A stretch of 64,000 nucleotides of DNA, taken from Dictyostelium discoideum. Taxonomy: Eukaryota. The DNA is taken from positions 128,001-192,000 of the forward strand of contig CM000151.3 of the NCBI GenBank assembly GCA_000004695.1, written 5' to 3'. Under the pieces are notes generated by a model, which saw only the letters and a program-made list of their open reading frames with translations, did not search any database and was not told the origin of the DNA. The translations under genes and the position numbers were made by a program. Shown here in pieces: positions 37,541 through 38,911 of the stretch. The stretch's first letter is position 1. The number at the start of each line of letters is the position of its first letter.

Positions 37541-38911
37541 TTATTCCAATTCCTGATCGGATTGTCTTGATCTTTTCCTGGGGAGATTATCGTCAATGGT
37601 TTCAACTTCTTGGACTAATTGTTTGACAGAATCACATTGTGATTTTAAGATATCAATCACTTGTTGGTTATGATCACCTTGCTTTTGGAAAATTTCCAAA
37701 TGTTTTTGTTTAAGATCATTGCTCTTTTTTGTAACCTTGAGGAGCTCATTCTTTACCAAGAATGTATTTTGCAGTGTTTCATGGACCTTTGTCTTAACAC
37801 TGGTATGGTGTTGTTTATCTACCAAGTTGCTGGTTCTAATTTCGTTTTGGATTTGGTTTTATGTTAGTTGGCTACCAGAAGTTGCAAGCACTGTAAGGTA
37901 AACTCGATTTGGCTCTGGAGCTTGATAACCAATTTTGAAATTGGATAGAACACTCTTTTTAGTTGTGGAATGAGAGCTTTGACTTGATTGCTTACAATTT
38001 GATGTTTTGCTACCATAATTTTCTTCTTTGAATTCTATCTTCATCTTCGGTTTCCTCATCAGTCTCTTCATCAACAGTTTGCGATGGAGTTAATTTTGGC
38101 GTGTTCCATTTTCAGATGGAGTTGGGTTTGGTATAGATGCAGTGGTTTTGAGTCCATGTTGATTAATATACATAACTATATTATTGTACTTGTTCATCAA
38201 TACTTGACTTTTGCCACTGAATTTGTTTCTGGTGAATAGATTGACTAGATGGGATCTGAACTTTTTAGGGCAGTCATTGTTTAACTTGTGGACATAAACA
38301 ACCATTTTGTGGAATTCTTCATAAGATTTGTAATGTTGATCTTTTTCTGAGTCATCTGTAACCCTTGTAAGATAATTTCTGAGTTCTGGACTGAATAGGA
38401 AATTTAATGATGTGATATTATTTGCAAAATGCTCCACAATGAAATCGTTGGCCTTCTTGTAAGTTACACGTTTCCCACCATTTTTATTTTCAGCTTTTTG
38501 GCGAATACAATATGAATAGAAAAGAACGTCATCATTGTCTTTGATTAGATCATAGTTTTCTTTAAGAAATGAGCACTCTAGAAATGGTTCAAGTAAACCA
38601 TCCACTGTGCTTGGGGTTGCGTCAACAAATCCAACCATTCCTTTCTGAGAATTAATATATCTGGTGTTAGTTGCAAATGAAAGTGTGACAGTATCAGTAG
38701 TGTTGATGTATATTGGGTACATTGTCATATTTAAAACTGATTGAAGTAAAATGAATAAGTGGAATAGTTGATCCGAATCATCAACTGACAATGATTCATA
38801 ATTCTCTGCTTTTTCTTGTAGTTTAATGAATTTTGCGATTCTGTAAAATGTAAGTTTGCCAACTTCATATCTTATATTTGGAATTTGGTAATGCAAATAA
38901 TTATCATTCAT
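37541..38911 (-). other. Three consecutive same-strand ORFs (38090..38911, 37859..38074, 37541..37825) in shifting frames inside a GC-richer block. Probably a degenerate gene or transposon remnant.
   Basis: GC content here is visibly higher than the flanks. Codons such as GAG/ACC/CGC/CTC are atypical for Dictyostelium genes. No AT-rich introns separate the ORFs. The products (MNDNYLHYQIPNIRYEVGKL... ; MMKRLMRKPKMKIEFKEENYGSK... ; MVDKQHHTSVKTKVHETLQN...) are unrecognised. Confidence 0.3.

What the first reader, a model, noticed from the sequence alone, without database searches (positions are those of the whole stretch)
37541..38911. GC-richer block with three frame-shifted ORFs: possible transposon remnant or pseudogene
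Composition and codon usage differ from the surrounding genes. Three ORFs follow one another on the minus strand in different frames with no AT-rich introns between them. Dictyostelium transposons are known to be GC-richer than host genes. The block is flanked by a (TTTA)n microsatellite and by the inverted (CAAAT)n/(GATTT)n arrays.
Basis: inference. Interest (0 to 1): 0.55.

Follow-up and report, generated by a model that had tools for sequence, protein, structure and literature searches.

The report
Dead fragment of a Harbinger-like transposon
The block is a broken, partial copy of the second gene of a rare two-gene "cut-and-paste" transposon of Dictyostelium discoideum, currently annotated as an ordinary hypothetical gene, so it is a transposon relic and not a working host gene.

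Summary
The window is D. discoideum AX4 chromosome 2, and the first ORF is the annotated gene DDB_G0271276. The GC-richer block and its flanking microsatellites are real. The three ORFs named by the coordinates, however, share one frame. An intact 460-aa homologue in D. cf. discoideum spans the whole block. Measured against it and the chromosome 6 paralogue, the window copy has a 1-nt deletion, a 1-nt insertion 78 nt downstream, and a TAA nonsense codon. An independent assembly carries all three lesions.

At two non-syntenic loci the same gene lies head-to-head with a DDE_Tnp_4 (PIF/Harbinger-type) transposase gene. Together they form a ~3.9-kb unit. In D. cf. discoideum the unit is bounded by 14-bp terminal inverted repeats. 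Other decayed copies lie in retrotransposon clusters.

The window holds only the accessory-gene half (about 37341-38945). It has no transposase gene and no clear repeat.

dN/dS of 0.13 against the intact copy shows the protein was once under selection. The protein has no Pfam domain and no homologue outside the D. discoideum species complex.

Verdict: an immobile, pseudogenised, 5'-truncated transposon fragment. Interest is modest. I found no description of this low-copy family in the held literature, but I could not check Repbase or Dfam.

The parts
37341..38945 (-). Whole transposon remnant: the accessory-gene half of the two-gene element. It runs from ~34 bp upstream of the ATG to the degenerate right terminus.
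   Evidence: blastn of window 37353-38945 against the chr6 copy L004 11588-10039: 19 mismatches in 1607 aligned columns, 10 gap openings. Window 37355-39044 matches L001 at 81%. The flanks are unrelated. The last ~13 nt (37341-37353) resemble the right terminal repeat of L002/L001.
38108..38911 (-). Accessory-protein coding segment 1 (268 codons, M...SEN): the N-terminal domain, still open. It is annotated, together with a frameshifted tail running to 38090, as DDB_G0271276 (273 aa).
   Evidence: 100% identical to P0001 = DDB_G0271276. 81% identical to the intact P0002. Coordinates.
38105..38107 (-). Frameshift 1: one nucleotide missing (GG-AAC here, GGTAAC in the chr6 copy, between 38105 and 38106). 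Specific to this copy.
   Evidence: Three-way alignment of window, L004 and L001. The same lesion is present in the independent assembly L003.
38028..38105 (-). Coding segment 2 (NTPKLTPSQTVDEETDEETEDEDRIQ), now out of frame with segments 1 and 3. It is part of the acidic linker.
   Evidence: Its translation matches P0003/P0005 (identical) and P0002.
38027..38029 (-). Frameshift 2: one extra base in a 3-nt homopolymer run (TTCAAAG here, TTC-AAG in the chr6 copy and L001). Specific to this copy.
   Evidence: Present in L003.
37862..38026 (-). Coding segment 3 (EENYGSKTSN...ATSGSQLT): the Ser-rich linker, back in the original frame.
   Evidence: Matches P0002, P0003 and P0005.
37859..37861 (-). 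Nonsense codon TAA (TCA = Ser in the intact homologue). Shared with the chr6 copy, so it is older than the chr2/chr6 duplication.
   Evidence: ACATAAAAC in both window and L004, ACATCAAAA in L001.
37541..37858 (-). Coding segment 4 (105 codons plus the stop at 37543-37541): a predicted long C-terminal helix that ends in the basic motif PRKRSR.
   Evidence: About 88% identical to the P0002 C-terminus. Helix 355-445 is the only region with pLDDT of 50 or more in the AF2 model.
37341..37540 (-). 3' untranslated and subterminal part of the element. It includes a 23-bp tandem duplication (37476-37527) that the chr6 copy shares and that is single in D. cf. discoideum. It ends in a degenerate right terminus (GCTT..CTTAAT).
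38906..39015 (.). (ATTT)n microsatellite at the 5' truncation junction. Homology to the complete elements stops about 34 bp upstream of the ATG, within it. It belongs to the junction, not to the element.
   Evidence: TRF result. Alignment with L004 and L001.

Best explanation
The block is an immobile, 5'-truncated and pseudogenised copy of a low-copy, two-gene DNA transposon of the D. discoideum species complex. The complete element is 3,864 bp in D. cf. discoideum. It has 14-bp terminal inverted repeats (TAAGGTTTTTTCA[C/G]). It carries a DDE_Tnp_4 (PIF/Harbinger-type) transposase gene with one intron. Transcribed divergently from it is an intronless gene for a ~460-aa accessory protein. That protein has a ~250-aa N-terminal domain, an acidic/Ser-rich linker, and a long C-terminal helix ending in a basic PRKRSR motif. 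By analogy with PIF/Harbinger elements, I infer that the accessory protein helps the transposase reach or recognise the element ends. This is inference, not shown. The window copy keeps only the accessory gene and the right end of the element. It lacks the transposase gene and the left repeat, and its ORF is broken by one inherited nonsense codon and two copy-specific 1-nt indels. It can therefore neither move nor make the full protein. What is shown: the homology, the lesions, the pairing with the transposase, the repeats, the non-syntenic sites and the past purifying selection. What is inferred: that the two genes move as one unit, the accessory protein's role, and how the chr2 fragment arose. 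I favour transposition or DNA-level copying that included the right terminus, followed by loss of the left half.
For: Identity: ORF1 = DDB_G0271276 on the 8.48-Mb AX4 chromosome. An intact 460-aa homologue, P0002, spans the whole block, and the repaired window protein is 80.5% identical to it end to end. Lesions: located. They are identical in the independent assembly GCA_054883475.1, which differs in a flanking poly-T length. Real gene once: dN/dS of 0.13 against the intact copy, with dS 0.69. Transposon: a DDE_Tnp_4 gene (45.6 bits against a cut-off of 24.8) sits head-to-head with the family gene at L001 and at the chr6 locus L004 = DDB_G0292368/DDB_G0292366. The AIDCT, LADRGY and VENANQRF motifs are readable in the sequence, and I assign them to the catalytic triad from memory of the family. 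The unit L004 8292-11586 matches L001 7708-11555 while the flanks are unrelated. The 14-mer lies exactly at the homology boundaries, inverted in L001 at 7712-7725 and 11562-11575. Copies L002, L004, L005 and L006 lie among RVT/integrase genes. The block's GC and GC3 match transposon ORFs and not host ORFs. Copy number is low: four protein clusters in 5.8 billion and five hits in 1.84 billion representatives, all from the D. discoideum complex except one spurious plant hit.
Against: No terminal repeat can be recognised confidently in the window. Only a 12-of-14 match with a 4-nt gap to the L002 right end is present. No target-site duplication could be defined. The chr6 copy has its right 14-mer in direct, not inverted, orientation. 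The accessory protein has no detectable Myb/SANT or any other domain, so its role rests on analogy. Synonymous divergence is discordant across the element: dS 0.05-0.11 for the transposase against 0.30-1.06 for the accessory gene. The two halves have therefore not always shared one history. Every transposase copy seen in D. discoideum itself is frameshifted, and no mobility has been observed. I could not compare the element with Repbase or the Dictyostelium repeat library.
Confidence: 0.8

Rival explanations
1. Processed retrocopy. The chr2 block was made by reverse transcription of the accessory gene's mRNA, for example by the TRE/LINE machinery. That would explain why it starts ~34 bp upstream of the ATG and ends ~200 bp after the stop without the transposase gene.
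For: The copy covers roughly a transcript-sized unit: a short 5' leader, the ORF and a 3' UTR. A second accessory-only copy exists in D. cf. discoideum, L002. The inherited nonsense codon shows the source copy was already defective, so it could not have supplied a full-length accessory protein for its own transposition.
Against: There is no poly(A) tail at the 3' end of homology on the sense strand; it ends in a T-run followed by a terminus-like sequence. Homology ends where the DNA element ends in L001, L002 and L004, which would be a coincidence for a poly(A) site. L002 also retains ~460 bp of the intergenic promoter region, which an mRNA copy would not. The gene has no intron, so intron loss cannot be tested.
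Confidence: 0.07
2. Ordinary host gene-family pseudogene. The family is a lineage-specific host gene that happens to lie beside a transposase at some loci, and the chr2 copy is a decayed segmental duplicate with no transposon biology.
For: Copy number is very low, two in AX4. dN/dS of 0.13 shows protein-level constraint. The accessory half is far more diverged than the transposase half. The protein has no recognisable transposon-related domain.
Against: The same head-to-head pairing and the same outer boundaries recur at two non-syntenic loci. A 14-bp repeat lies exactly at those boundaries, inverted in L001. Four further loci lie inside retrotransposon clusters. The composition is that of transposons. 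The distribution among strains is patchy, and nothing was found in D. purpureum or other dictyostelids.
Confidence: 0.08
3. Still-functional truncated gene. The intact 273-aa ORF (the N-terminal domain alone) is expressed and retained, for example as a transposition regulator or a domesticated host factor, so the locus is not simply dead.
For: The N-terminal domain ORF is fully open in the chr2 copy, whereas the chr6 copy has lost it to a 54-nt deletion and an early TAA. It keeps an ATG and an AT-rich upstream region. It is annotated as a gene in two assemblies.
Against: Between the chr2 and chr6 copies there are only 2 synonymous and 4 non-synonymous differences, so there is no signal of constraint and no power to detect one. 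The upstream region is not the element's own promoter but a microsatellite junction. There is no expression evidence and no literature.
Confidence: 0.1
4. Intact gene misread. The frameshifts are reference sequencing errors or programmed recoding, and the locus encodes the full protein.
For: Both indels lie in short homopolymer runs, and they compensate each other 78 nt apart.
Against: An independent assembly has exactly the same bases. The stretch between the indels contains a stop in the shifted frame. The TAA nonsense codon is a substitution shared with the chr6 copy. The intact homologue needs no recoding.
Confidence: 0.02

Closest known systems
PIF/Harbinger superfamily DNA transposons (e.g. 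maize PIF, rice Ping/Pong, zebrafish Harbinger3_DR)
   Same: The partner gene at the complete copies is a DDE_Tnp_4 transposase above Pfam's threshold. The element has two separately transcribed genes, short terminal inverted repeats and a size of about 3.9 kb. The second protein is required in known Harbinger elements for nuclear import and end recognition (established knowledge from my memory of Harbinger3_DR and Ping/Pong work, not tested here).
   Different: The second protein shows no Myb/SANT/trihelix domain, contains no tryptophan, and has no homologue outside the D. discoideum complex. The canonical 3-bp TWA target duplication could not be shown. The window copy itself has neither a transposase gene nor clear repeats.
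Catalogued Dictyostelium DNA transposons (Tdd-4/5, DDT-A/B/S, thug-S/T)
   Same: Same host. DDT/Tdd elements are reported to cluster with elements of their own kind (PMC2665215). Here the other copies of this element lie among retrotransposon genes.
   Different: A 2017 review states that none of those transposases resembles known transposases (PMC5633606), whereas this element's transposase is a clear DDE_Tnp_4 member. Tdd-4/5 encode integrase-like proteins (PMC2836005 abstract). This family has only about 1-2 copies per genome.
Transposon-derived pseudogenes annotated as hypothetical genes (general annotation artefact)
   Same: DDB_G0271276 (273 aa) is the open N-terminal part of a broken ORF. 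Automated models elsewhere use improbable GC-rich 'introns' to skip the stops: P0005 (393 aa), and a 148-aa model equivalent to window 38044-37541.
   Different: Nothing unusual; this is the ordinary case.

Membership tests
PIF/Harbinger superfamily | Encodes a DDE transposase of the DDE_Tnp_4 / IS5-related type | tested here: met
   Met for the complete copies L001 and L004: PF13359 E = 7e-12, 45.6 bits against a cut-off of 24.8. The D-D-E context motifs are readable in the sequence (motif assignment from memory). NOT present in the window: tblastn finds nothing.
PIF/Harbinger superfamily | Second ORF encoding a Myb/SANT-like DNA-binding protein | tested here: not met
   A second ORF exists, and it is the gene of this finding. 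Pfam at E <= 1 gives no Myb/SANT/trihelix hit. A PDB profile search gives nothing. Two AlphaFold runs were unusable, with pLDDT 36 and 32. A divergent DNA-binding fold cannot be excluded.
PIF/Harbinger superfamily | Short terminal inverted repeats at the element boundaries | tested here: met
   L001 7712-7725 TAAGGTTTTTTCAC and 11562-11575 CTGAAAAAACCTTA are 13/14 complementary and lie exactly at the inter-locus homology boundaries. In L004 the right copy is in direct orientation. In the window only a degenerate right end remains.
PIF/Harbinger superfamily | 3-bp target-site duplication (TWA) | tested here: inconclusive
   The flanks are AAA|TAAGG...CCTTA|ATA in L001. TAA/TTA read as part of the repeat are not a direct duplication. 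No empty site was available for comparison.
Pseudogene (disabled copy of a protein-coding gene) | Homology to an intact coding gene plus disabling lesions, shown to be real and not sequencing errors | tested here: met
   80.5% identity over the full length to the intact P0002. One 1-nt deletion, one 1-nt insertion and one nonsense codon. All are reproduced in a second assembly.
Catalogued Dictyostelium repeats (TRE, DIRS, Skipper, DGLT, DDT, Tdd, thug) | Nucleotide or protein similarity to the family consensus | not testable with these tools
   No Dictyostelium repeat library is available. Indirect evidence only: no RT, integrase or tyrosine-recombinase domain in the block, and the review statement that the known DNA-transposon transposases lack similarity to known families.

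The most novel reading that the evidence does not exclude
The ~460-aa orphan protein is a new kind of Harbinger-type accessory factor, unrelated to Myb/SANT, that evolved or was captured within the D. discoideum species complex. Its gene recombines among deeply diverged lineages (dS up to ~1) onto nearly identical transposase halves (dS 0.05-0.1). In addition, the open 273-aa N-terminal ORF kept at this chr2 locus could be an expressed truncated derivative acting as a regulator.
Probability: 0.12. Interest if true: 0.5.

Novelty: new member of a known kind. Interest (0 to 1): 0.27.

Why it matters
The practical value is for annotation. DDB_G0271276 and DDB_G0292366 should be flagged as transposon-derived pseudogenes. 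DDB_G0292368 should be flagged as a decayed Harbinger-type transposase. The 148-aa and 393-aa spliced models are artefacts.

There is a small biological point as well. D. discoideum's DNA transposons are described as having transposases unlike known families. This very low-copy element shows that a recognisable PIF/Harbinger-type (IS5-related) transposon also entered the species complex, and it is now almost extinct there. Its accessory protein is an orphan under past purifying selection. It could be a tractable case for asking what non-Myb partners do in two-gene transposons. The intact D. cf. discoideum copy is the one to test.

Tried and rejected
- **Pfam.** Scans of all ORFs and of the intact homologue gave no domain, only sub-threshold noise such as SOG2, T4_Gp59_C and Glyco_hydro_28.
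- **Profile HMM search.** The search against 1.84 billion representatives returned only family fragments and one spurious plant CCHC protein.
- **PDB sequence searches.** They returned nothing.
- **AlphaFold2.** I ran the full protein and the N-domain alone. Mean pLDDT was 36 and 32, so no fold search was run, because it would have been meaningless.
- **Second copy or transposase in the window.** None was found. A search for the terminal 14-mer gave only a chance-level hit.
- **tRNA and Rfam scans.** I ran these in case the element was tRNA-targeted or an ncRNA was present. They found nothing.
- **Literature.** No paper holds the gene or UniProt identifiers. No held paper links PIF/Harbinger to Dictyostelium specifically. 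Glöckner 2001, the repeat catalogue, is not held.
- **Orthologous chr2 site in other strains.** An exact-protein look-up of a neighbouring gene found only a 1-kb read contig.
- **(AAATC)n inverted arrays as part of the element.** Rejected: they are absent beside all other copies.
- **Sequencing error or programmed frameshift.** Rejected.

Full report
**What is there**

The window is Dictyostelium discoideum AX4 chromosome 2. The 273-aa minus-strand ORF at 38911-38090 is 100% identical to DDB_G0271276, on a contig of 8,484,197 bp.

The block 37541-38911 has 33.6% GC and a third-position GC of 0.29-0.34. The 32 ORFs of 150 aa or more in the window average 25.9% GC and GC3 0.15. The flanking (ATTT)n, (AAATC)n and (TTTGA)n arrays are real. 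The last two form 73-nt inverted arms.

They share one frame and are separated by in-frame stops.

**The block is one broken gene**

A search of 5.8 billion proteins found only four relatives, all in the D. discoideum species complex. One of them, P0002 from D. cf. discoideum, is an intact 460-aa protein that covers all three ORFs and the gaps between them.

DNA alignments with that gene (locus L001) and with the D. discoideum chromosome 6 paralogue (locus L004) locate the lesions in the window copy:
- One base is missing between 38105 and 38106.
- One base is extra in the run 38027-38029. The 78 nt between these two indels (38105-38028) therefore encode NTPKLTPSQTVDEETDEETEDEDRIQ in another frame.
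- A TCA-to-TAA nonsense codon lies at 37861-37859.

After repair, the window encodes a ~456-aa protein that is 80.5% identical to P0002 over its full length.

An independent assembly (GCA_054883475.1, locus L003) carries exactly the same bases across the block, while differing in a flanking poly-T length. The lesions are therefore not reference errors.

The nonsense codon is shared with the chr6 copy. The two indels are private to chr2. The chr6 copy has private lesions of its own: a 54-nt deletion, an early GAA-to-TAA change and a 2-nt deletion. Both D. discoideum copies are pseudogenes, and the common ancestor of the two copies was already disabled.

The gene was a real protein-coding gene for most of its history. 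dN/dS against the intact copy is 0.13, with dS 0.69.

**It belongs to a transposon**

In D. cf. discoideum the intact gene lies head-to-head, about 550 bp apart, with a gene that hits DDE_Tnp_4 and DDE_Tnp_1. I spliced out its single 474-nt intron, which gives a 368-aa transposase scoring 45.6 bits for PF13359 against a cut-off of 24.8. The AIDCT, LADRGY and VENANQRF motifs are readable in it, and I assign them to the catalytic triad from memory of the family.

The D. discoideum chr6 paralogue (DDB_G0292366) has the same partner in the same arrangement, DDB_G0292368.

The two loci share a block, L004 8292-11586 against L001 7708-11555, while everything outside it is unrelated. A 14-mer sits exactly at the boundaries. 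In L001 it is TAAGGTTTTTTCAC at 7712-7725 and its near-perfect inverse at 11562-11575, which defines a 3,864-bp element.

Further decayed copies (L002, L005, L006) and the chr6 copy itself lie among reverse-transcriptase, integrase and tyrosine-recombinase genes.

The element's genes have the same GC and GC3 as those retrotransposon ORFs, and not those of host genes.

**What the window copy retains**

Homology to the chr6 copy runs from window 38945, 34 bp upstream of the ATG, to 37353. There are 19 mismatches in 1607 aligned columns.

On the 5' side, homology stops inside the (ATTT)n microsatellite. The window contains no transposase homologue and no recognisable 14-mer.

On the 3' side, homology ends where the element ends at the other loci. 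The next 13 nt resemble the right terminus of L002, with 12 of 14 matching and one 4-nt gap.

I therefore read the block as a DNA-level copy that included the right end of the element and has lost its left half. A retrocopy of the mRNA is less likely. There is no poly(A) tail, the end coincides with the element end, and the analogous fragment L002 retains promoter-side sequence.

**How it would have worked**

This part is inferred. By analogy with PIF/Harbinger elements, the DDE transposase cuts at the terminal repeats. The second protein supports nuclear import or end recognition.

The accessory protein's C-terminal long helix and PRKRSR motif fit a protein-interaction and nuclear-localisation role. 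This is analogy only. No Myb/SANT or other domain is detectable, and both structure predictions failed.

In D. discoideum the family looks extinct. The only transposase copy has two frameshifts, and both accessory copies are broken.

**Unexplained features**

Synonymous divergence between the D. discoideum and D. cf. discoideum elements is 0.05-0.11 for the transposase. For the accessory gene it is 0.30 in the C-terminal part and 1.06 in the N-terminal domain. A host enzyme is 97% identical between the same taxa. The accessory half therefore seems to come from a much older lineage, probably by recombination between subfamilies.

The chr6 element carries its right 14-mer in direct orientation. 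A third, imperfect copy of the motif overlaps the transposase start codon in L001.

**Comparison with what is known**

The architecture is that of PIF/Harbinger. Membership is supported by the transposase and the repeats. It is not supported for the Myb-like partner, and it is undecided for the target-site duplication.

The catalogued Dictyostelium DNA transposons (Tdd, DDT, thug) are said to have transposases without similarity to known families (PMC5633606). This element therefore appears to be outside that catalogue, but I could not search the repeat library. No held paper mentions the gene identifiers.

**Verdict**

This is an ordinary kind of object: a dead transposon fragment mis-annotated as a hypothetical gene. 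It belongs to a small family that I did not find described in the held literature. Interest is modest.

Noticed in passing
window 39420-39492 and 39715-39787: Inverted arms of 73 nt, 93% complementary, built of (AAATC)n plus the unit CAACCATTGCATC and separated by 222 nt. They lie in the unannotated intergenic region upstream of the block. They are unique in the window and absent beside every other copy of the element, so they are unrelated to it. Their function is unknown.
   Followed up: partly
L001 7877-9457 vs L004 8547-9711, and L001 10001-11383 vs L004 ~10070-11420: Discordant synonymous divergence within one 3.9-kb element: transposase dS 0.05-0.11, accessory gene dS 0.30-1.06. A host protein is 97% identical between the same taxa. 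This suggests recombination between old accessory-gene lineages.
   Followed up: partly
L004 11592-11605; L001 9459-9472: The terminal 14-mer TAAGGTTTTTTCAC occurs in direct, not inverted, orientation at the right end of the chr6 element. An imperfect third copy overlaps the transposase start codon in L001. These may be binding sites or a small terminal inversion.
   Followed up: no
window 38044-37541 (L003 gene 10868-11371) and P0005 (L004 10001-11390): Automated gene models of 148 aa and 393 aa bypass the stop codons by invoking 'introns' that are not AT-rich. These are probably annotation artefacts.
   Followed up: partly
window 37476-37527: A 23-bp tandem duplication (TTTTTTATTTTAGTGTTAATTTT x2.3) in the 3' UTR. 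The chr2 and chr6 copies share it, and it is single in both D. cf. discoideum copies.
   Followed up: yes
window 37066-37103 and 37141-37148: A small GC-rich island with a perfect 12-nt palindrome, TTGCGTACGCAA. About 40 nt away lies ACCCACAA, which resembles the Dictyostelium upstream sequence element of ncRNA genes (from memory). There was no Rfam match, and the class I RNA motif I recalled from memory (CCTTACAGCAA) was not found in the window.
   Followed up: partly
L001 9575-9690 (and L002 9300-9400): Tandem copies of TTAGCTGTTACCCCAATAAGATTT in the intergenic region between the two divergent element genes. L001 has one more copy than L002. They are candidate promoter or protein-binding repeats.
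   Followed up: no
window 12555-13007 (-): A ribosomal-protein-like ORF (my reading of the translation is L27e-like: KPGRLVILLNGKYAGRKAVV...). It has the highest GC3 (0.42) among plausible coding ORFs in the window. This shows that high GC3 alone also marks such ordinary host genes, not only transposons.
   Followed up: no
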